The notes under the pieces: generated by a model
The model's database searches: none
The model's input: the letters and a program-made list of their open reading frames with translations, nothing else
Told to the model about the DNA's origin: nothing
Program-made: the position numbers and the translations under genes
Source of the DNA: an uncultured Desulfobacteraceae bacterium
GTDB lineage: Bacteria; Desulfobacterota; DSM-4660; Desulfatiglandales; HGW-15
DNA length: 64,000 bases
Direction of reading: 5' to 3'
Assembly (NCBI GenBank): GCA_964520425.1
Contig: CAZFMX010000005.1
Location: 1,416 to 65,415 of the forward strand
Part shown: positions 4,571 to 53,246 of the stretch, one piece after another
How positions within the stretch are numbered: position 1 is the stretch's first letter
Layout of the letters: each line of letters begins with the position of its first letter

Positions 4571-5111
4571 GGGAAATCCTCTTTTTCCCCTTCACTAAAC
4601 CGTTAAGTCCCTATGCTCGGCCGTCAGAGACAACTAGAACGCTGAGACTAAGCGGCTAATCATGTCATTCTAAAAGGGGTGATTGATCAATCTCTCAAAG
4701 ATCCGGTCGGGTCGCGATACCCTCTAACAATCGTCCATATCATACATGATAATCAAGAAATTATCACATACCAGATATGAGTGCAAATTTGACTTTCTAA
4801 TCTTCTATAATGATGTTAATTTAACCCATTTATATCTAAAATCACTTAATATGCCATGGAATACTCTAGTTTTTTTCGGCAGAAGTAAAGAAAACGCTTG
4901 AATTGGATTGATCCTGGCTAAGAGGACACGGTTTTTCGTCCGATTCATGTCTTCATCACCGCGATTTTTTTCATACTTTCCAGGCAGAGCCATCGGCTCT
5001 GCCTGGAAAGACATCAATATCTAAGATCATCATTCTCATTCCTCATCCAGTGCTGCCAAAATCCGCTATCAAATTCCTGTTTAATTATAATATAGTGGAC
5101 TTTGAGGAAGA

Positions 5112-5238
5112 CCTGGGCACCAGCAGGGTGTTAGATGTAAGGTGCCGAGGAGTGCCGACTGAGGCGTATAAATAATACGCCGCAAGGAGAAGCGACCGAA
5201 GGTAACGCAGCAGATGACGCCATGATGGTGGCTCAGGG
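5112..5238 (+). repeat. family-C structured intergenic repeat, copy 1
   Basis: About 127 nt, near-identical in layout to 8648-8775: CCTGGxCACCAG...GGYGCCGAGGAGYGCCGACTGAGGYGTAT..ATACRCCGCAAGGAGAAGCGACCGAAGG...CTGGTGG.TCAGGG. Confidence 0.7.
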
Positions 5239-8530: not shown

Positions 8531-8647
8531 TTTCTGGATGGACGCTACCTAAACAATGAATGAAAAGCAAGCTGCGAGCGTTTCAGATCAACAAATTTCA
8601 CCATCAAATTTGTTGATTGGCAATGATAATTCAGGATTTTGGGGAAT

Positions 8648-8775
8648 CCCTGGACACCAGGAAAGTGTTAGCTACAAGGCGCCGAGGAGCGCCGACTGAG
8701 GTGTATATACAATACACCGCAAGGAGAAGCGACCGAAGGCAACACAGCAGATGACAGCTTCCTGGTGGATCAGGG
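8648..8775 (+). repeat. family-C structured intergenic repeat, copy 2
   Basis: See 5112-5238. Same orientation, with compensatory differences in two hairpins. Confidence 0.7.
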
Positions 8776-11302: not shown

Positions 11303-11377
11303 TACCCGTAAGGTTTCTCCCTTAGAGAGGAAGATCTCAGGAAGTTCCCTCCAAAAGGGGCATTAAGAGAAGAAAGA

Positions 11378-11571
11378 GGGACCTTTGAAAAATATTCAAT
11401 TCTGTTCAAGGTCAAGGAAGGCGAGAATTCTAACCCTCCCGATTTTCATCGGGACAGCCAGGAATACCTGTAGTATTTCGCGAATTAGAATTTGAGTCTG
11501 ACACCGCTTGTCCCGCCATAGCCTTTGGCGACGGCGGAAGATTGGGCAAAAGGGGTGTTTTTCAAAGGTCT
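11378..11571 (+). repeat. family-B MITE-like repeat (longest copy)
   Basis: Termini GGGACCTTTGAAAAAT ... GTTTTTCAAAGGTCTC. Core ...TTCAAGGTCAAGGAAGGCGA.AAT.CTAACCCTCCCGATTTTCATCGGGACAGCCAGGAATACC. Confidence 0.75.
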
Positions 11572-11694
11572 CAAAGACTCAATGGCTGAAAGTCTCCGCA
11601 TGTTCACGATTAGTACCTGCATGCATCGGCAATCGAGAAAAGCTGCAGTGCTGGGAGGTTTTGGACGGTCAATCATGTATGAGCTTTCGAGGTC

Positions 11695-14400
11695 ATGGTA
11701 AATCAGGGGAAGTACCAGCGGCGATCAGGAAAAGCATGGTCTAGGCGCGGACCTGGCCACACACTGGAAGAACCTTACATATCCCCAAGAGCAGACCCCC
11801 ATCTCAAGCCTCTCTTTAAAAAGATCGGTGTTCCAAAACCCACCCCCTTTGAACCAGATCCTTTTCAAGTGGAAGCCCTTGAACAGATTAAGACCTCTGA
11901 TGTCCTGGTCAGCGCACCTACGGGCTCCGGGAAGACATGGATTGCCTCTCAGGCCATCGGACAATATCTCTCCAAAGGATTGAGAGCCTGGTATGCCTCA
12001 CCGCTCAAGGCCCTGTCCAATTCCATCTATCAGGAATTGAGCAGGGAATTTGGGTCCGAGTCATGTGGAATCCTGACAGGGGATCGAAAAGAAAATGCCA
12101 GCGCGCCGATCATCGTAGGAACCACGGAAATTTTACGTAACCAGCTCTATGATGCGATGCAGACGGGGAAAACCATCCGGTCCGACCTGGTGATATTGGA
12201 TGAGGCGCACTATCTCAGTGATCCGGATCGAGGAGTGGTCTGGGAAGAGGTGCTCATCTATCTGCCCCCCCGAGTAAGGCTCTTGCTTCTCTCGGCGACC
12301 GTATCTAATGCCGAAGAGATCTCAGCATGGCTGGAGGAGAATCGCAGAACCCAGACCCGAATTGTGTGCTCTGACGATCGGCCTGTGCCATTGGAAATGC
12401 TTTTCCTTTTCCCGGATGGATTCATCTCTCCCCTTGGCGGGAAAAGAGGACTTGCCCCCAGGGTCAAAAAGTATATCTCCTCCCGAGAAGGAAAGAGAAG
12501 AGGATTAAAAAAAATCCAATTTGGGGAGATCATCCACTGTCTGAGGGCATTTGATCTCCTTCCGGCCATCTTCTTTCTCAAATCAAGAAAAGATTGCAAT
12601 CATGCCCTCTTGACCTGTCCATCCGTGGAAAGACCTTCTGAACTCAGAGAGCGGGCTGAACGGGAAGTCAAGGAGTTTATGCAGGAGTACCCTCACCTGA
12701 AGGGACATCCTCAACTCAGTCGGTTATCGGACGCCGCAGTGGGCTCCCATCATGCGGGCCAGCTTCCCTACTGGAAGATGCTCATTGAGAGGATGATGAA
12801 TAAAGGGTATTTGGAAGTCATCTTCTCCACATCCACGGTGGCGGCGGGCGTGAATTTTCCTGCAAGGACCGTGGTTTTAGTCCAGAGTGACCGTTATGAC
12901 GGGCATGAATTCACCAACCTCACGGCAACAGACCTTCACCAGATGGTCGGTCGAGCCGGACGAAGGGGAAAGGACAACATCGGATTTGCCCTCATCGTGC
13001 CCGGTCTTCACCAGGACCCTGAGCTAATATATGAACTAAGGGACTCTCCTCCAGAGCCTCTTATGAGTCAGATCCACATCAATTTCTCCATGACCCTGAA
13101 CCTGCTCCTTTCGCATACACCCATGGAGGTGAAGGATCTGCTGGACCATTCATTTGCCGCGTTCCAAGAAAAAAAGGCAGGTTCCCCAGTGCAGAGGCAA
13201 TGGGAGGAGATGCTTAGGGTTTTAAACAAAGCACTCCCTCAAGGTCTGTGCGATACGGGTGATCCCTACGAGATTCTGGAGAACATCGATAAAAGACTGG
13301 AGACAAATAGAGAAAAGAAGGTGATGAAAAGAGAGATACGGAATGAAAGGCGATTGAGAACATACACCCCGTTCCTGCGACCCGGGCGATTGTTTCTTCA
13401 TAAGAATAAAGGGATCTATGTCATCTTTCATACCTACAAGGATGAAGGAAGACTGATCTGTGCGGCTCACAATATTCACGAGACCGTTCGAGCCAGGAAA
13501 CGCAAAATCCGGTTGAGAAAAGTCCCTTTCGATAAGATCCGAGCCCTCTACGATTATCGGGTCGATTTGCCGGAGGGCTATTCTTTAGAGAGATTGCAGA
13601 CACTTTTCGATGCCATCAGCAGGGATGACCTGGAGTTGTTGCGTGTCGATTCCTCCGAAGAAGCAGTCGGAGAAGGAGATCTGGATCTCATCCAGAAAAG
13701 ACTGAGTGAACTCCCATGTGAGACATGTGAACACCTCAATGAGTGCCACACGGCAAAGAACAAGAAACTGAAACGGATCTTAAAAGAATTTCGGTCACTT
13801 GCCTATAAGATGGGGGGGGACAAAGGCGGGTTGTGGGCCAGCTTCAAAAGACACCTCAGATTTCTCAAAGAGATGGGTTTTGTGGATGAAACGGATCAAT
13901 TGACGCCTGACGGAGACTGGGCATCTAAATTGAGACTGGACCAGCCCCTTCTTATTGCCGAGGCCATCAGAAGAAAGGCTCTGAGCGGCATTTCTCCTGA
14001 GGTCATGGCAGGGTGCATGGCGCCTTTTGTCTGGGATCGGGTCCAGGAAGTGGAGCTTCTGACCCAAAGTCCCATGGACCTGAAGAATTGCGAAGATGCC
14101 TTTAGCAACGTGATCGAATCGATCCAAGAGATCAGAACGCTGAAAGCAAAGCGGGGATTTGAAAACCCTCCGATCCTCTTTTGGCCCGCGGCAGCCCTGT
14201 TTTTATGGGCCAAAGGAGTGCCGTGGGAAAGGCTTTTATCCTATATTCCTGTAGACGAAGGGGATATGGCCTCTCTGATTCTAAGGACGGCAGACCACTT
14301 GCGGCAGGCGACAAACCTAAAGAAATCCCACCCCGAACTCGTCTCAGTAGCCCACACGGCCATAGAGCATATCCTGCGTGAACCTGTCCTTATCTCCTAG
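11695..14400 (+). CDS. Ski2-like superfamily-2 DEAD/DEAH-box helicase
   Basis: SAPTGSGKT (Walker A), LDEAHY (motif II), SAT, HHAGQLP, and a long C-terminal domain. Confidence 0.85.
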   Translation: MVNQGKYQRRSGKAWSRRGPGHTLEEPYISPRADPHLKPLFKKIGVPKPTPFEPDPFQVEALEQIKTSDVLVSAPTGSGKTWIASQAIGQYLSKGLRAWYASPLKALSNSIYQELSREFGSESCGILTGDRKENASAPIIVGTTEILRNQLYDAMQTGKTIRSDLVILDEAHYLSDPDRGVVWEEVLIYLPPRVRLLLLSATVSNAEEISAWLEENRRTQTRIVCSDDRPVPLEMLFLFPDGFISPLGGKRGLAPRVKKYISSREGKRRGLKKIQFGEIIHCLRAFDLLPAIFFLKSRKDCNHALLTCPSVERPSELRERAEREVKEFMQEYPHLKGHPQLSRLSDAAVGSHHAGQLPYWKMLIERMMNKGYLEVIFSTSTVAAGVNFPARTVVLVQSDRYDGHEFTNLTATDLHQMVGRAGRRGKDNIGFALIVPGLHQDPELIYELRDSPPEPLMSQIHINFSMTLNLLLSHTPMEVKDLLDHSFAAFQEKKAGSPVQRQWEEMLRVLNKALPQGLCDTGDPYEILENIDKRLETNREKKVMKREIRNERRLRTYTPFLRPGRLFLHKNKGIYVIFHTYKDEGRLICAAHNIHETVRARKRKIRLRKVPFDKIRALYDYRVDLPEGYSLERLQTLFDAISRDDLELLRVDSSEEAVGEGDLDLIQKRLSELPCETCEHLNECHTAKNKKLKRILKEFRSLAYKMGGDKGGLWASFKRHLRFLKEMGFVDETDQLTPDGDWASKLRLDQPLLIAEAIRRKALSGISPEVMAGCMAPFVWDRVQEVELLTQSPMDLKNCEDAFSNVIESIQEIRTLKAKRGFENPPILFWPAAALFLWAKGVPWERLLSYIPVDEGDMASLILRTADHLRQATNLKKSHPELVSVAHTAIEHILREPVLIS

Positions 14401-14506
14401 TGTCGTGTCCCAAAAGAAACTTACATAAAAGAGTGCCTGAAAACAGATCCATAAAGATGTCACAGAATATGTTCATGATAATGTAAGTGATTTCTGGGAC
14501 ACGACA
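14397..14506. repeat. family-A MITE-like repeat, minimal form
   Basis: CTAG+TGTCGTGTCCCAAAAGAAACTTACAT ... ATGTAAGTGATTTCTGGGACACGACA. Fills the gap between two convergent genes. Its CTAG provides the helicase stop codon. Confidence 0.8.
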
Positions 14507-18850: not shown

Positions 18851-19525
18851 TCACAGCTCATTGAACAAGAATCTCGGAAGCCAGAGAAAAATTTTATAGA
18901 AGAAATCAACCGGCCCTAAAACAAGATTGGACAATCCTCCTGATACGAGGAGGACGATCAGGATGATCATTCCGTAACGTTCAAGCCGAAGGTAGAGATT
19001 ATAGTATTTTGTCGGAAGGAATCTCATAACGACTTTGCTGCCGTCCAAAGGAGGGATAGGGATGAGATTCAGAAAAGCAAGAAACAAGTTCAGGTAGATA
19101 ACCGCTTTAGCCAGTTCAGAAAGAAGAACATAGACAACTACAAGGGATGAGGGCACAAACTTATTCACTAGGACCACAACAAATGAGAAAATAAGGGCGA
19201 GGGTGAGATTCGACCCGGGGCCTGCCAACGCGACCCACATGGTTCCCTTTCTTATGTCAATATGTTGGTGAAAATTGTGAGGATTAAAAGGGACAGGCTT
19301 AGCCCAACCAAAAACAGGTTTTCTGAGAAAAAGCATCACAAGCGGCAAAATGACTGTCCCCATTATATCGATGTGGGGAATGGGGTTAAGAGTGAGTCTT
19401 CCCATGTCCTTGGCTGTAGTGTCCCCGAGCCTGTAAGCCATCCATCCGTGTGCTACTTCATGAAGGACGATTGAAAAGACAATGGGCACCACCCAGATGA
19501 TTCTCAATATGAGATCATTATTCAT
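18851..19525 (-). CDS. site-2 protease (M50-like) family membrane metalloprotease
   Basis: HEVAHGWMAYRLGD, multiple TM helices, ...NLIPIPPLDGS. Start placed at ATG 19525 (GGAAGGAG upstream). Confidence 0.8.
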   Translation of the reverse strand: MNNDLILRIIWVVPIVFSIVLHEVAHGWMAYRLGDTTAKDMGRLTLNPIPHIDIMGTVILPLVMLFLRKPVFGWAKPVPFNPHNFHQHIDIRKGTMWVALAGPGSNLTLALIFSFVVVLVNKFVPSSLVVVYVLLSELAKAVIYLNLFLAFLNLIPIPPLDGSKVVMRFLPTKYYNLYLRLERYGMIILIVLLVSGGLSNLVLGPVDFFYKIFLWLPRFLFNEL

Positions 19526-19845
19526 TCCTGTCTGTTCTCCTTCCTGGATTACAAGACGTAAGCTCCGGTACTGCATCTTCAATGGGCTGATCGATCGGCA
19601 TTACGGAAATAGACACCGTATACTCATTTCCTGATTGATAATTCGGAGGACTTTTGTATAGTAGCAAAAGAGCCTTTTTTTCACAAGTAACTGTGGGTTG
19701 TCCCGTCTTTAGATTTCGGAAATTTATGAACTTCACCCTTACACCTATAACTGATTGGACCGATCTAGATTATATGAAACGGGCTGCTCCAGGGTGTGAT
19801 ACAACACACCCTAAAGAAAGAAACTCATTTAAGGAGGAGCAGCCC

Positions 19846-20943
19846 ATGAAAAAGATAGTCTATGTTGGAATCGATTACCATCAAAATACTCTTACAATTG
19901 CAGTATGTGCGGAAAACAATGAGAAGATTCACGAGACCGTTCGCATGCGGAATGAGGACAAGATTATTAGAAAGTATATGAAGAAGCTGTCAGCCCAATT
20001 TAGGATAAAGGCCTGCTATGAAGCCTCTTCAAGCGGATATTACTTTCAAAGAAAGATGAAATCCTGGGGCTACGACTGCGAGGTCATTGCCCCTTCCTCA
20101 CTTCCTAAAAAGCGCGGAGATCGTCGTAAGAATGACTTTCGGGATGCCCGGGATCTGGCCCAAAATTATGCTAACGGAACCCTGAGCATTGTTCATCTGC
20201 CCACCGAAGAGGAGGAATCGGTCAGAAACCTCATTCGTTGCCGATCAGCGTTCAAAGAGGCTGAGAAAAGAGCGAAGCAACAGATCAATTCCTTGTTGCT
20301 TTCTCAGGGTCTTCGTTGGTCCCTTAGCAAATGGACGTTTCAACATCGCAAGTGGCTTTGGGAGTTGAAGATGCCCAATGAATATCTCCAGATTGTCCTT
20401 GATGAGCATTTGGCTCATTTGGATTATATCCAAAGCCGCATAAAATCTTTTGACCAGCAGATTGAGCAGATTGCCAAGTCTGATCTCTATGAACCAGCAG
20501 TAAAAAAGCTGCGGGCCCTCAAAGGTATTGGTACCCTATCGGCCATGTTGTTGATTACGGAAATCACCGATTTTCGTCGGTTTCCGAACCCTGGAGCATT
20601 GATGGCCTTCTTGGGATTACTTCCATCGGAACACTCTTCTGGAGATAAACAAAGAGGGGGCCCCATTACCAAAACTGGCAACCCTCGCTGTCGGAGTCTG
20701 CTGATAGAATGCGTACAACATTATGTAAAGAAGCCCCAAATCAGTTATGTGATGAAGGCCGATCTTTCGCAAGTGGATCCTCACAGTGCAGCTATCGCTG
20801 TTAAGTGTTTAAAACGCTTACATAAACGCTATTGGGCCTTGACCATGAAAGGAAAGATCAGACCCGTCGCCCTAACCGCCATTGCCAGAGAGTTGGTAGG
20901 CTTTATTTGGGCCATGATGCAACCTCAAGCCGTTAACGTATAG
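19846..20943 (+). CDS. IS110-family transposase/recombinase
   Basis: Starts MKKIVYVGIDYH (RBS AAGGAGGAG at 19831). C-terminal LKGIGTLSAMLLITEITDFRRF...LPSEHSSGDK...ITKTGNPRCR. The ORF-track start at 19654 is an unsupported N-terminal extension. Confidence 0.9.
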   Translation: MKKIVYVGIDYHQNTLTIAVCAENNEKIHETVRMRNEDKIIRKYMKKLSAQFRIKACYEASSSGYYFQRKMKSWGYDCEVIAPSSLPKKRGDRRKNDFRDARDLAQNYANGTLSIVHLPTEEEESVRNLIRCRSAFKEAEKRAKQQINSLLLSQGLRWSLSKWTFQHRKWLWELKMPNEYLQIVLDEHLAHLDYIQSRIKSFDQQIEQIAKSDLYEPAVKKLRALKGIGTLSAMLLITEITDFRRFPNPGALMAFLGLLPSEHSSGDKQRGGPITKTGNPRCRSLLIECVQHYVKKPQISYVMKADLSQVDPHSAAIAVKCLKRLHKRYWALTMKGKIRPVALTAIARELVGFIWAMMQPQAVNV

Positions 20944-21269
20944 AGGCCTGTGATTTTCGATCAAAAGAATTTTGATCAAAAAGCACAGGAAGAAAATCTA
21001 ACACCTCAAAACTATTAAACAAAGGAGTTCGTGGGGCACGTCAGGAGATACTCGACGACACTATGTGAAAGGGGTTCCTTGCCCCTTACTCACGATCGCT
21101 AGAATGAGAGGACTCCGGACGAATGATGAATAATCATGGTAACCAACCCACGTATAGCAGTTTGATTCACCGTCGAAGAAGCCCCACCTCCTTTTCTTAA
21201 TACGAAAAAGTCAATTATGGCCTAACAAAATAATCATTTTATTGTTGACAAAAGCCCGTTTCATAGCAG
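20944..21269 (+). ncRNA. candidate bridge-RNA region in the 3' non-coding arm of the IS
   Basis: 326 nt, hairpin-rich (long hairpin at 20947-20989). ACGACACTA (21055-21063) is the reverse complement of the reconstructed empty site TAGTGTCGT. No covariance-model test was possible. Confidence 0.35.
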
Positions 21270-21588
21270 TGTCGTGTCTCAGAATTAACTTGAATAATAA
21301 GTACCTGCTGCACAAACTCAAAGGGGACATGGGGGCCTCTTTTCAGTTCCACCACCATCTATCCAGAGGTCGTGGAACGGCACCATAATTTTGCATATTA
21401 TGAAGCAGCCCCACGAACAATGTACCCACAGCGACGGGCATCCCTTGTGCCTGTCCACCGAACGTTGTCCTCTTTGGGGGCGGTTAGGGGCTCAGGCGTC
21501 TTTTGGGTGTTGGAACTGAAAAGAGACCCCCATGTCCCCTTTGAATCTGTGCAGCAGGATTTATAAATTCTGAGACACGACACTAAAA
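21270..21588. repeat. family-A repeat with a ~318-bp palindromic core, interrupted at its left terminus by the IS
   Basis: TGTCGTGTCTCAGAATTAACTTGAATAATAAGTACCTGCTGCACAAACTCAAAGGGGACATGGGGGCCTCTTTTCAGTTCC ... GGAACTGAAAAGAGACCCCCATGTCCCCTTTGAATCTGTGCAGCAGGATTTATAAATTCTGAGACACGACA+CTAA. Confidence 0.8.
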
Positions 21589-21602
21589 GGGAGGTGGATT
21601 GA

Positions 21603-22457: not shown

Positions 22458-22597
22458 TAAAGTCATTTGGTTCGTCCGGTTAATGAGTACACAATAATTT
22501 GAGGTTTCGTATCAGTTGAACAGCGAAAGAATGGTGATGAAATCTTTTCTTCGATTCTGAGTCCACGGCCAGAGGTGGTGGGCCCAATTCACAACTA

Positions 22598-22763
22598 GAG
22601 ACCTTTGAAAAATGCTCAAATTTGTTCAAGGTCAAGGAAGGCGAAAATCCTAACCCTCCCGATTTTCATCGGGACAGCCAGGAATACCTTAAAAGTATTT
22701 CGAGGATTAGAATTTGAGCCTGACGCCGAAATTGGGCAAAAGGGGGCGTTTTTCAAAGGTCTC
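22598..22763 (+). repeat. family-B MITE with 5-bp target-site duplication
   Basis: AACTA|GAGACCTTTGAAAAATG ... CGTTTTTCAAAGGTCTC|AACTA. Abuts the stop codon of the AOR gene. Confidence 0.85.
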
Positions 22764-22765
22764 AA

Positions 22766-25736: not shown

Positions 25737-26078
25737 CTAGTGCTCTGTATCGTATATTCACGGATCAAGTAAAAGATGAGGCATGGGCTGTTCCCTCAAG
25801 ACGATATCTCAAAAAGAAATTCCACTGAACCCTGCAGTGATTTGAGCTTTGAGGGGGAATGCCCCAGGGTGCGCCCCGGGGGGTACCCCCCAGAACCCGC
25901 GGCAGAATGTATGGCTCGCTTGGAAGAATCATCCTCTCAAACCCTCAAAGTTCAGATCACCACCACGGGTCCCTATAGATATCGTCTTGAGGGAATAGTC
26001 CTTGCCGAATTACACATTCAAACAATCGAGTGGTCCATCAAAAACCCTGAATATAAGTCTCAGGAATCATGATGCTAG
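25737..26078 (+). repeat. composite repeat: degenerate family-A termini (CTAG...CTAG) carrying D core copy 1 (25780-26006)
   Basis: The D core is a ~225-nt rod: GGCATGGGCTGTTCCCTCAAGACGATATCTC ... GATATCGTCTTGAGGGAATAGTCCTTGCC with an inner 19-bp stem. Confidence 0.75.
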
Positions 26079-31431: not shown

Positions 31432-32022
31432 CGTCGTATCCCAGAAGTAACTTAAATCAAAAAGTGGCTCCTCAGGAGAATCCCTGGGTTCATACGTAAA
31501 GGAGAAGAATGGAAAAAGTTGAAAATCCAAGGATTTTCGCAGTCATGTTTGCCCCTAGTGTTCGTGTTCACGATCGAGAGTAGATATTAGGGTAAAGTGG
31601 CGAAATCTTTTCATCGATTCCAAAGTTCCCGGCCTAGTCACTCCGAAAAGATCCCGCCACATCTCTTCAGTTGAATACGAATTTCCCTTACTACACCCAT
31701 AGATTCTCATAAGGAGCCCAATAAGTGCCTGTTTTAGATTCAAATGGGGTATGGTCTGTTCCCTTAAGACGATATCTCACAAAAAATTCCACTGAATCCC
31801 CTGTGATCTGCCCTTTGAGGGAGTATGCCCCGGGATTCTCCCCGTGGGGTACGCCTATGGACTTTCCGCAGAATGGTTAATTCGCTTGAAAAAACAGCCC
31901 CTTAAACCCTCAAAGGGCAGATCACCACCGCTGGACGCTATAGATATCGTCTTAAGGGAATAGATCATGCCCCAACGGATCAATTTAGTTTGTGAATATA
32001 TGAATATTTGATACGACACTAG
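31428..32022 (+). repeat. composite repeat: family-A termini (CTAG...CTAG) carrying D core copy 2 (31748-31972)
   Basis: CTAG+CGTCGTATCCCAGAAGTAACTTA ... ATATTTGATACGACA+CTAG. The left CTAG supplies the nifS stop codon. Confidence 0.75.
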
Positions 32023-33372: not shown

Positions 33373-33700
33373 CTAGAACGAGTGTCTTGTATCAAGTATT
33401 CATAACCCAAATACCAAATGCGGCATGGCCTATTCCCGAAAGGTAATATCTCGGAAAAAATTCCATTGAACTTCCTATGATCCACCCTTTGAGGGTTTAC
33501 GCTTATTGACTTATGGCAAAATGGTTAGTTCGCTTGAGAGAAAAGGGCCCTCAAACCCTCAAAGGGCAGATCACCGCCACTGAATCTTAGAGATATCGTC
33601 TTGAGGGAATAGGCCATGCCGCATTTCATATCAAACCGATCGAGAATTCCATAAAAAAGCTATAAGTATGAGTCTCAGAGACTATGTTACGAGATACTAC
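33373..33700 (+). repeat. composite repeat: decayed family-A-like flanks carrying D core copy 3 (33416-33626)
   Basis: AAATGCGGCATGGCCTATTCCC ... GGGAATAGGCCATGCCGCATTT. The right flank aligns with the right flank of copy 1. Outer boundaries are approximate. Confidence 0.6.
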
Positions 33701-53011: not shown

Positions 53012-53246
53012 CTAATGTCGTGTCTCAGAATTATCTTGAATATTGAGTACCCACTGCACAGATTCAAAGGGGACATGGAACTGGTTAAAATGATGGAAAA
53101 TATTTCTGGGACACGACGCTAGGAGAATGGTGATGAGGTCTTTTCATCACCATTCCCTCGATGTGAAACTGAAAAGAGATCCCCATGTCCCCAACGTGTC
53201 ATAGAACCAGCTAAAATGATGAAAGCTATTTCTGAGACATGACACG
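53012..53246. repeat. family-A repeat cluster (one left end, two right ends, plus hairpin module)
   Basis: CTAA+TGTCGTGTCTCAGAATTATCTTGAATATTGAGTACC ... ATATTTCTGGGACACGACG+CTAG (53122). Then GAATGGTGATGA..TCATCACCATTC hairpin. Then ...CTATTTCTGAGACATGACAC (53246). Confidence 0.75.

What the first reader, a model, noticed from the sequence alone, without database searches (positions are those of the whole stretch)
19765..21290. IS1111-type IS110 element at a MITE terminus, with a target-complementary 9-mer in its long 3' arm (candidate bridge RNA)
**Seen in the sequence**
- The recombinase CDS (19846-20943) is flanked by a 77-bp 5' arm and a 326-bp hairpin-rich 3' arm.
- The 13-bp inverted repeats TATGAAACGGGCT and AGCCCGTTTCATA lie 4 nt inside the inferred ends, so they are subterminal.
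- Deleting 19769-21269 joins ...GATCTAG to TGTCGTGTCTCAGAATT. This recreates the terminus CTAG+TGTCGTGTCYCAGAA that is intact at 14397, 31428 and 53012. The IS therefore sits exactly between the flank and the first base of a family-A repeat.
- Inside the 3' arm, ACGACACTA (21055-21063) is a perfect reverse complement of the reconstructed empty site TAGTGTCGT, which spans the insertion point.
- CGATCGCTAGAAT (21093-21105) loosely resembles the left flank CGATCTAGAT. This match is weaker.

**Established knowledge**
- IS110-family recombinases use an element-encoded bridge RNA with target and donor guide loops.
- IS1111-subgroup members carry their long non-coding arm 3' of the gene.
- They often insert at fixed positions in repeats, for example REP sequences or the IRs of Tn21-type transposons.

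**Inference**
This arm encodes a bridge RNA programmed for family-A termini.
Basis: partly seen in the sequence, partly recalled or inferred. Interest (0 to 1): 0.75.

Follow-up and report, generated by a model that had tools for sequence, protein, structure and literature searches.

The report
IS1111-type insertion sequence with bridge RNA
This is an intact jumping gene of the known IS110/IS1111 kind that carries its own guide RNA, and that RNA is programmed to insert the element exactly at the end of a small repeat (MITE); it is a well-supported new example of a mechanism described in 2024, not a new mechanism.

Summary

**The element.** Window 19769-21269 is an intact 1,501-bp IS1111-type member of the IS110 family. 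It has a DEDD/Transposase_20 recombinase, 13-bp subterminal inverted repeats, a 77-bp 5' arm and a 326-bp 3' arm. It sits precisely at CTAG|TGTCGTG, the flank plus first base of a 313-bp MITE.

**The RNA.** The 3' arm encodes a structured RNA of about 165 nt (21024-21195).
- A covariance model built from 38 other loci, without the window, hits it uniquely (147.8 bits, E 4e-33).
- The "weaker" match (21095-21104) is the 3' strand of the same loop. It copies the left flank plus core.
- A third segment (21154-21160, ATAGCAG) copies the IS right end.

**Covariation.** All three segments covary with the flanks or the end across about 40 relatives (z = 13 and 7.7 against shuffled pairings).
- A 93%-identical IS elsewhere sits at the same CTAG|TGTCGTGTCTCAGAAT.
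- A sister copy with guide ACGATACTA sits at CTAG|TATCGTG.

**Not shown.** Expression of the RNA was not tested, and no guide for the left end was found.

**Verdict.** New member of a known kind; modest interest.

The parts
19769..21269 (+). Complete IS1111-type IS110-family insertion sequence, 1,501 bp. It can equally be drawn as 19767-21267, because the core AG is present at both junctions.
   Evidence: Relatives have the same end structure.
19767..19768 (+). Core dinucleotide AG, left copy. The right copy is at 21268-21269. It is shared by target and donor, so there is no target-site duplication.
   Evidence: Every listed left flank (39 distinct guide/flank pairs) ends in AG and every listed right end ends in AG.
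19773..19785 (+). Left subterminal inverted repeat, TATGAAACGGGCT.
19781..19845 (+). Structured 5' UTR. A 10-bp stem pairs GGGCTGCTCC (19781-19790) with GGAGCAGCCC (19836-19845). The 3' strand of this stem overlaps the Shine-Dalgarno AAGGAGGAG (19831-19839) and abuts the ATG. An inner hairpin lies at 19791-19812.
   Evidence: RNAalifold on 22 relatives predicts 10 pairs, 3 of them with compensatory changes. The function, blocking translation, is inferred.
19846..20943 (+). Recombinase gene (365 aa). It has an N-terminal DEDD/RuvC-like domain and a C-terminal Transposase_20 domain. The GL-P----SG motif is at residues 257-266.
   Evidence: Pfam PF01548 and PF02371. NCBIfam NF033542, 'IS110 family RNA-guided transposase', 231 bits against a cut-off of 140. 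Motif. Similarity to the IS621 C-terminal domain, E 1e-6.
20946..20990 (+). Long hairpin immediately after the stop codon. Role unknown (processing or attenuation?).
   Evidence: It is kept in L162 but is not evident in more distant relatives.
21024..21195 (+). Bridge RNA / seekRNA gene. It is closed by a long stem P1 (21024-27/21188-91 and 21032-37/21181-86), followed by a U tract (21192-95). Inner helices: P2 21044-47/21113-16, P3 21051-55/21104-08, P4 21065-74/21082-93, P5 21118-21/21171-74, P6 21127-31/21165-69, P7 21137-39/21143-45.
   Evidence: Covariance-model hit at 21030-21188. Pair counts. G-U pairs, for example 18 of 40 sequences at the base of P3, support the + strand.
21055..21063 (+). 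Top-strand target guide (T guide), ACGACACTA. ACGACA pairs with the right flank TGTCGT, CT pairs with the core AG, and A pairs with the T before the core.
   Evidence: Across 37 distinct pairs, 4.73 of 6 positions match, against 2.21 when pairings are shuffled (z 13).
21095..21104 (+). Bottom-strand target guide (B guide), ATCGCTAGAA. It has the same sequence as the left flank plus core (plus the first IS base). In this copy only CTAGA (21099-21103) matches ungapped.
   Evidence: Across 39 pairs, 3.77 of 7 positions match, against 2.49 shuffled (z 7.7).
21154..21160 (+). Donor guide ATAGCAG. It has the same sequence as the last 7 nt of the IS right end (ATAGC plus core AG).
   Evidence: Guide equals end in 40 of 42 elements, including the covarying ATAACAG (7 elements) and ATAAGAG (1 element). 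L162 has ATAACAG in both guide and end.
21245..21250 (+). Outward-facing -35 box TTGACA. After circularisation it lies 18 nt from GATTAT (G 21269 plus ATTAT 19769-19773), forming a junction promoter.
   Evidence: TTGAC(A)-17/18-GAT[AT]AT is present in 30 of 32 distinct elements. Pjunc is described for ISEc11 and others (PMC12288879).
21253..21265 (+). Right subterminal inverted repeat, AGCCCGTTTCATA.
21270..21582 (.). The target: a 313-bp MITE-like family-A repeat with 15-bp terminal inverted repeats, flanked by CTAG (reconstructed) and CTAA.

Best explanation
An intact IS1111-type IS110-family insertion sequence whose long 3' arm encodes a bridge RNA (seekRNA).

**Target loop.** One internal loop of the RNA reads the target on both strands. 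Its 5' strand (21055-21063) pairs with the top strand of T+AG+TGTCGT. Its 3' strand (21095-21104) pairs with the bottom strand of the left flank ...CTAG. The two reads overlap at the core AG.

**Donor loop.** A second loop carries ATAGCAG (21154-21160), which pairs with the bottom strand of the IS right end plus core in the circular donor.

**Inferred cycle.**
1. The element excises as a circle, joining right end to left end through AG.
2. This junction creates a promoter (TTGACA-18-GATTAT) that transcribes the recombinase gene and the RNA together.
3. The RNA is closed and probably ended by stem P1 and a U tract.
4. The recombinase-RNA complex then recombines the circle into CTAG|TGTCGT. That site is the 4-bp flank plus the first bases of the terminal inverted repeat of a MITE family.

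**Shown here:** element anatomy, the RNA fold with covariation, guide-flank and guide-end covariation, and independent insertions at the same site.

**Inferred from the published family mechanism:** RNA expression, binding to the recombinase, the circle intermediate and the strand-exchange chemistry.
For: - **Protein.** Pfam PF01548+PF02371. NCBIfam NF033542, 231 bits. GLLPSEHSSG motif.
- **Anatomy.**
- **Model.** A covariance model built without the window hits 21030-21188 only (147.8 bits, E 4e-33).
- **Structure.** 87.4% of cells paired against 28-46% in slid controls. 16 pairs have compensatory changes. 0 of 500 shuffles reach the observed values.
- **Guides.** T guide against right flank, z 13. 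B guide against left flank, z 7.7. Donor guide equals the right end in 40 of 42 elements, with covarying variants.
- **Independent copies.** L162 (93% aa) sits at CTAG|TGTCGTGTCTCAGAAT beside another family-A MITE with a different left flank, and has ATAACAG in both donor guide and right end. L065 has guide ACGATACTA and flank TATCGTG. The 86%-identical group L166-L171 has 5 different left flanks among 6 full-flank contigs (L166 and L167 share one), each contig at T[TC]AG|TGTCCATCC.
- **Junction promoter.** Conserved in 30 of 32 elements.
- **Match to published architecture.** The order (top-strand match 5' of bottom-strand match) and the overlap in the target match the published IS1111 seekRNA description (PMC11187229). 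93% of IS1111 elements are predicted to carry a bridge RNA in the right end (PMC11208160).
Against: - There are no expression or binding data.
- No + strand promoter was found in front of the RNA in the integrated copy.
- In this copy the B guide matches only 4-5 nt of the actual left flank ungapped.
- No guide for the left end (right donor half) could be identified, by eye or by mutual information.
- The related loci were collected with a 20-base motif taken from the 3' part of this RNA. Conservation of that motif itself is therefore circular. The guides, the flanks and the rest of the fold were not selected on.
- The recombinase is 365 aa, slightly outside the 330-350 aa quoted for IS1111 transposases.
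Confidence: 0.9

Rival explanations
1. The conserved 3' arm acts as DNA rather than as a transcribed guide RNA, for example as recombinase-binding sites or single-stranded DNA hairpins. The complementarity to the target would then serve DNA-DNA recognition.
For: No expression data exist. No promoter was found upstream of the RNA in the integrated copy. The inverted repeats and the donor-like segment show the arm has similarity to the DNA ends.
Against: Many helices contain G-U pairs, which would be A-C mismatches on the other strand. For example, there are 18 of 40 at the base of P3 and 24 of 40 in P4. This fits one transcribed strand. The architecture equals that of RNAs shown to co-purify with IS1111 transposases and to be essential (PMC11187229). 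NCBIfam places the protein in the RNA-guided family.
Confidence: 0.04
2. The element is a correct IS1111-type IS with a bridge RNA but is no longer mobile. The guide-target match would then record a past insertion only.
For: The window holds only one copy, yet three unoccupied sites match the T guide perfectly (14398, 21577-21585 minus strand, 32013-21 minus strand). The exact protein is not on record elsewhere.
Against: The reading frame is full length and the same size as its relatives (365 aa). The inverted repeats are perfect. All RNA helices, both guides, the donor guide and the junction promoter are intact. Unoccupied targets are normal for tightly regulated IS elements.
Confidence: 0.15
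3. The 9-mer complementarity is a chance match and target choice is made by the protein alone.
For: A junction-spanning 9-mer in a 326-nt arm is expected by chance about 1% of the time.
Against: The same RNA position tracks the right flank in 37 distinct guide/flank pairs (z 13). The second loop strand tracks the left flank (z 7.7). Sister copies show paired guide-and-target changes.
Confidence: 0.01

Closest known systems
IS1111-family elements with seekRNA: ISEc11, ISKpn4, ISPst6, ISPa11 (Siddiquee et al. 2024, PMC11187229)
   Same: DEDD transposase, subterminal inverted repeats and a long non-coding region downstream of the gene. The RNA has a top-strand match 5' of a bottom-strand match, and the two overlap in the target. 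Relatives are naturally re-targeted by changes in the loop. A junction promoter forms on circularisation.
   Different: No close sequence relationship could be shown: the only named IS1111-family element recovered, IS5075, is 24% identical at the protein level, and ISEc11 itself was not compared. The target is different (MITE end). The protein is 365 aa rather than about 340. The RNA here is closed by a long stem and a U tract. None of it has been tested experimentally.
IS621 bridge RNA system (Durrant et al. 2024, PMC11208160; structures 8WT6-9)
   Same: An RNA with a target-binding internal loop and a donor-binding loop. Each DNA partner is read around a shared core dinucleotide. The recombinase has RuvC-like and Tnp domains.
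   Different: In IS621 the RNA lies in the left end, upstream of the gene, and the strand order of the guides is reversed. Similarity to the IS621 protein is detectable only in the C-terminal domain (E 1e-6). Here only one donor guide (right end plus core) was found.
[quoted passage not shown]
   Same: An IS1111-type element that inserts at a fixed position and orientation in the terminal inverted repeat of another mobile element.
   Different: The target here is a MITE terminus together with its 4-bp CTAG flank. IS5075 is 24% identical over 92% of the protein.
ISEc45-like element on an E. coli plasmid (NZ_CP024262.1)
   Same: It is the closest IS with a specific name that was recovered (38% aa). 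The model built here gives a weak full-length hit directly downstream of its gene on the same strand (15.8 bits, E 0.03).
   Different: The hit is weak, that copy is frameshifted, and its target is unknown.

Membership tests
IS110 family (DEDD recombinase IS) | Recombinase with an N-terminal DEDD/RuvC-like domain (PF01548) and a C-terminal Transposase_20 domain (PF02371). | tested here: met
   (E 9e-11 and 9e-20). NCBIfam NF033542 scores 231 bits against a cut-off of 140.
IS110 family (DEDD recombinase IS) | No target-site duplication. A short core is shared by the target and the joined ends. | tested here: met
   AG is present at both junctions and once in the reconstructed empty site. It is AG in all relatives.
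IS1111 subgroup | Subterminal inverted repeats of 7-17 bp, a few bases inside the ends. | tested here: met
   13-bp perfect repeats, 4 nt from each end.
IS1111 subgroup | The longer non-coding region lies downstream of the recombinase gene. | tested here: met
   326 bp at the 3' side against 77 bp at the 5' side. Criterion.
IS1111 subgroup | C-terminal GL-P----S(T)G motif. | tested here: met
   GLLPSEHSSG at residues 257-266. Criterion.
IS1111 subgroup | Transposase length of about 330-350 aa and full-length relatedness to the IS1111 transposase. | tested here: inconclusive
   The protein is 365 aa. It aligns over 92% of its length with IS5075 at 24% identity. No ISfinder set or phylogeny was available.
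IS1111-type seekRNA / bridge RNA | A structured RNA in the right-end non-coding region, on the same strand as the gene. | tested here: met
   Covariance-model hit and covariation. Strand supported by G-U pairs.
IS1111-type seekRNA / bridge RNA | [quoted passage not shown] | tested here: met
   Criterion.
IS1111-type seekRNA / bridge RNA | A donor-binding loop that reads both halves of the joined IS ends. | tested here: inconclusive
   A guide for the right end plus core was found and covaries. No guide for the left end was found.
IS1111-type seekRNA / bridge RNA | The RNA is expressed, binds the recombinase and is required for transposition. | not testable with these tools
   Needs RNA-seq, pull-down and transposition assays.
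Rfam RNA families | A match to a curated covariance model. | tested here: not met
   Only sub-threshold miRNA-like hits on the post-stop hairpin. No Rfam family hit the guide RNA.

The most novel reading that the evidence does not exclude
Every copy carries a perfect half-target for itself. This sits in the DNA that encodes its top-strand guide, on the opposite strand: window 21055-21063 on the minus strand reads TAGTGTCGT.

In one related contig (L125) a sibling IS sits in inverse orientation exactly at that position inside another copy's bridge-RNA gene, which destroys the gene.

If this is systematic, these elements would limit their own copy number by inserting into, and inactivating, each other's guide RNA genes.

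A second open reading is that donor recognition is asymmetric. Only the right end plus core would be read by RNA, and the left end would be read through the subterminal repeat or by the protein.
Probability: 0.12. Interest if true: 0.55.

Novelty: new member of a known kind. Interest (0 to 1): 0.33.

Why it matters
The finding adds a well-documented natural example of RNA-guided recombination from uncultivated sediment bacteria. Contig titles name Desulfobacteraceae and Deltaproteobacteria MAGs, among others.

- The clade is large: more than 100 metagenomic loci in two subfamilies.
- Natural re-targeting can be read directly from paired guide and flank changes.
- Such sets are useful for learning the pairing rules of IS1111-type bridge RNAs, for which no solved structure turned up in the PDB sequence search (only IS621 and ISCro4 matched), and for mining compact programmable recombinases.

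Biologically, it shows one mobile element using the ends of another (a MITE plus its CTAG flank) as a safe landing site. This echoes IS4321/IS5075 on Tn21 ends. It does not change what is known about the mechanism.

Tried and rejected
- **Rfam.** A scan of 19500-21600 at E up to 10 gave no bridge-RNA family, only miRNA-like hits on the hairpin at 20946-20990.
- **Viral contigs.** A 15-base motif scan gave 32 hits. None showed the conserved RNA context on inspection, so they look like chance or coding matches. L010-L041 were discarded.
- **RNAalifold alone.** It recovered only 20 pairs and missed P2, P4 and P6. I therefore proposed the structure by hand and tested it with pair counts.
- **Single-sequence fold.** Folding the whole arm (z -3.1) was not relied on.
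- **Guide for the left end.** I tried by-eye registers against both strands of AG+ATTATATG. Mutual information between left-end positions and all RNA columns gave no convincing partner. The left end varies too little.
- **'Handshake' bases after the core.** In the B guide this is AT, nearly invariant, as is the left end. In the donor guide it is mostly T. Neither could be tested for covariation.
- **Internal promoter for the RNA.** None was found on the + strand.
- **Empty-site orthologue.** The exact recombinase and the upstream neighbour are not on record. The downstream Memo gene is on a 1.3-kb contig whose 202 bp upstream of the gene would still lie inside the MITE. No orthologous empty site was obtained.
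- **IS and MITE as one composite unit.** Rejected. The MITE occurs alone in the window, and relatives of the IS abut unrelated repeats.
Full report
**1. The observation**

The sequence is as described.
- An ORF of 365 aa (19846-20943) is flanked by 77 bp and 326 bp.
- The 13-bp repeats TATGAAACGGGCT (19773-19785) and AGCCCGTTTCATA (21253-21265) lie 4 nt inside the inferred ends.
- Deleting 19769-21269 restores ...GATCTAG|TGTCGTGTCTCAGAATT.
- The terminus TGTCGTGTCYCAGAA occurs 10 times in the window at up to 2 mismatches, against 0.25 expected.

The repeat downstream of the IS (21270-21582) is a complete 313-bp MITE-like unit. It has 15-bp terminal inverted repeats and long internal palindromes. 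Other copies measure 103-106 bp and about 590 bp. These units are flanked by CTAG or CTAA on both sides: 21270-21582 by CTAG..CTAA, 31432-32017 by CTAG..CTAG, and 53016-53118 by CTAA..CTAG. The CTAG to the left of the IS is therefore the MITE's own 4-bp flank.

AG occurs at both IS junctions, so the ends are ambiguous by two bases.

**2. The protein**

- Pfam finds DEDD_Tnp_IS110 and Transposase_20.
- NCBIfam places it in NF033542, 'IS110 family RNA-guided transposase', at 231 bits against a cut-off of 140.
- The motif GLLPSEHSSG (residues 257-266) fits the GL-P----S(T)G signature quoted for IS1111 transposases.
- Only the C-terminal domain is detectably similar to the solved IS621 and ISCro4 proteins (E about 1e-6).
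- Close relatives (up to 93% identity) are all from metagenomes and mostly on 1-3 kb contigs, as expected for a repeated element.
- Among annotated plasmids the best matches are 41% identical (Sinorhizobium). An ISEc45-like E. coli element is 38% identical. IS5075, an IS1111-family member, is 24% identical over 92% of the length.

**3. Relatives of the 3' arm**

Nine loci from genome bins showed a strongly conserved block of about 150 nt downstream of the gene. They come from Desulfobacteraceae, Deltaproteobacteria and other MAGs.

I scanned the metagenome collection with a motif from the 3' part of that block, CCACG-N10-TGATTCANCGTCGAAG. They fall into two subfamilies:
- one like the window, with repeat TATGAAACGGGC;
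- one with repeat ATATGGAACGACC.

The motif itself was selected for. The rest of the RNA, the guides and the flanks were not.

**4. The fold**

I aligned 40 distinct window-type RNAs and proposed seven helices.
- P1 is a long closing stem followed by a U tract.
- P2-P3-P4 enclose an internal loop.
- P5-P6-P7 enclose a second, asymmetric loop.

Counting pairs on that alignment gives 87.4% of cells paired, against 28-46% when the 3' partners are slid by 1-3 columns. 16 pairs show changes on both sides, and 0 of 500 shuffles reach the observed values.

P1, P3 and the P4 hairpin carry the compensatory changes. P2, P5 and P6 are nearly invariant in sequence and so say nothing either way. Frequent G-U pairs fit folding of the + strand.

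A covariance model built from 38 of these RNAs, leaving out the window and its sister L065, finds exactly one hit in the 64-kb window: 21030-21188 on the + strand, 147.8 bits, E 4e-33. The same model also hits the second subfamily (47-68 bits) and a divergent element, L135 (78 bits). It gives a weak hit just downstream of the ISEc45-like gene (15.8 bits, E 0.03).

**5. The guides**

Its first base sits at the position that closes P3 in most relatives; in the window that position is an A-A mismatch.

Reverse-complementing this strand in every locus gives xAG followed by the first 4-7 bases of that locus's right flank. Over 37 distinct guide/flank pairs, 4.73 of the first 6 flank bases match, against 2.21 when loci are re-paired at random (z 13). 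Matching falls from 95% at flank position 1 to 41% at position 6 and to background at position 7.

*Bottom-strand guide.* The 3' strand of the same loop has the same sequence as the left flank ending in the core AG, followed by AT (the first two bases of the IS). Over 39 pairs, 3.77 of 7 positions match, against 2.49 (z 7.7), with signal to position -7. Clear cases are L009 GAAGCTAG, L043 TAATTAG and L070 ACTTTAG.

In the window this strand is one base longer than usual. Ungapped, it matches only CTAG plus the first IS base. Both the window and L162 have CGATC just upstream in the flank, which would pair if one or two RNA bases bulge out. I leave this open.

*Agreement with published work.* The order (top-strand match 5' of bottom-strand match) and the overlap at the core are what Siddiquee et al. 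describe for IS1111 seekRNAs.

**6. The donor side**

In the second loop, ATAGCAG (21154-21160) equals the last seven bases of the IS.
- Guide and end are identical in 40 of 42 elements.
- This includes seven with ATAACAG in both and one with ATAAGAG in both.
- L162 is 97% identical to the window RNA yet has ATAACAG in both places.

I found no counterpart for the left end. The left end hardly varies, and no RNA column tracks the variation that exists.

**7. Independent insertions**

- **L162** (93% aa) lies at CTAG|TGTCGTGTCTCAGAAT, beside a diverged family-A MITE, with an unrelated left flank.
- **L065** lies at CTAG|TATCGTGTCC. Its guide reads ACGATACTA, a paired change.
- **L158** and **L051** sit at TGTAGTGTCTCAGA and TGTCGACCCTCAGA. 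L158's guide matches its flank over TAG plus 5 bases, and L051's over TAG plus 4.
- **L166-L171**, an 86%-identical group, has five different left flanks among six full-flank contigs (L166 and L167 share one). Each contig is at T[TC]AG|TGTCCATCC.
- Other lineages recur at other repeated right flanks: TGCCTGAACG, TTTCCATCC, CTCTTTGAA, CTTGCTGCGGGG.

The clade therefore lands at the ends of repeated sequences that follow (T)AG. The window still holds unoccupied sites that match the T guide perfectly, at 14398, at 21577-21585 on the minus strand (the other end of the same MITE) and at 32013-32021 on the minus strand.

**8. Expression signals (inferred)**

- TTGACA (21245-21250) faces outwards. 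After end-joining it lies 18 nt from GATTAT, formed by the last G of the IS plus ATTAT of the left end. TTGAC(A)-17/18-GAT[AT]AT is present in 30 of 32 distinct elements. Junction promoters of this kind are described for ISEc11 and other family members.
- No + strand promoter precedes the RNA in the integrated copy. This fits co-transcription with the gene from the junction promoter.
- The 5' UTR forms a conserved 10-bp stem (19781-19790 with 19836-19845). Its 3' strand overlaps the Shine-Dalgarno sequence, and the stem shows compensatory changes. It probably blocks translation of read-through transcripts. A structured, inhibitory 5' UTR is reported for ISPpu9.

**9. Comparison and verdict**

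The element meets every sequence-level criterion of the IS1111 subgroup that I could test, apart from a slightly longer protein. Its RNA has the published IS1111 seekRNA / bridge RNA layout.

It is a new member of a known kind. Since Durrant et al. predict a right-end bridge RNA in 93% of IS1111 elements, a specialist would expect this result. The value lies in the clean natural covariation set and in the MITE-end target.

**10. Seen in passing**

In L125 a sibling IS lies in inverse orientation inside another copy's RNA gene, exactly at the junction of the top-strand guide and P4. That is where the opposite strand reads TAG plus the guide's own target. I found one such case among about 130 loci.

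Noticed in passing
L125 (minus-strand orientation), about 330 nt upstream of the RNA 3' motif; compare window 21055-21063 minus strand: A sibling IS is inserted in inverse orientation inside another copy's bridge-RNA gene, exactly at the top-strand-guide/P4 boundary (GGCCTCTCATTAT-AG|ATTATATGAAACGGG). The DNA encoding the guide is itself a half-target on the opposite strand. Only one case was seen among about 130 loci.
   Followed up: partly
window 19781-19845: A conserved 10-bp stem pairs the inner part of the left inverted repeat with the sequence from the Shine-Dalgarno to the start codon. It shows compensatory changes in relatives and probably acts as a translation block.
   Followed up: partly
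window 21245-21250 with 21269 + 19769-19773: A junction promoter, TTGACA-18-GATTAT, forms only when the ends are joined. It is conserved in 30 of 32 related elements.
   Followed up: yes
window 20946-20990: A strong 45-nt hairpin lies immediately after the recombinase stop codon. It is kept in L162 but is not evident in distant relatives. Its role is unknown.
   Followed up: no
window 19760-19768 and L162 left flank: Both occupied family-A sites have CGATC just upstream of (C)TAG. This would match CGATC in the bottom-strand guide if 1-2 RNA bases bulge out. It could be chance or a bulged pairing.
   Followed up: partly
window 14401-14506, 21270-21582, 31432-32017, 53016-53118 (and 53016-53244): Family-A MITE-like repeats of very different lengths share 15-bp terminal inverted repeats and CTAG/CTAA flanks. 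This suggests mobilisation by a transposase that duplicates CTAR. No such transposase was looked for.
   Followed up: partly
window 25776-26044, 31744-31971, 33418-33658; 11377-11574 and 22597-22765; 5097-5238 and 8634-8775: Further dispersed repeat families unrelated to family A.
   Followed up: no
L174 1439-1593 (E. coli plasmid NZ_CP024262.1, ISEc45-like element): The RNA model gives a weak full-length hit directly downstream of a 38%-identical, frameshifted recombinase gene (15.8 bits, E 0.03). This suggests the same RNA class in a named enterobacterial IS.
   Followed up: partly
L165 1-1200: One copy of an 86%-identical IS has lost its left end to an upstream DDE_Tnp_1 transposase gene, giving a nested or truncated mobile-element arrangement.
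   Followed up: no
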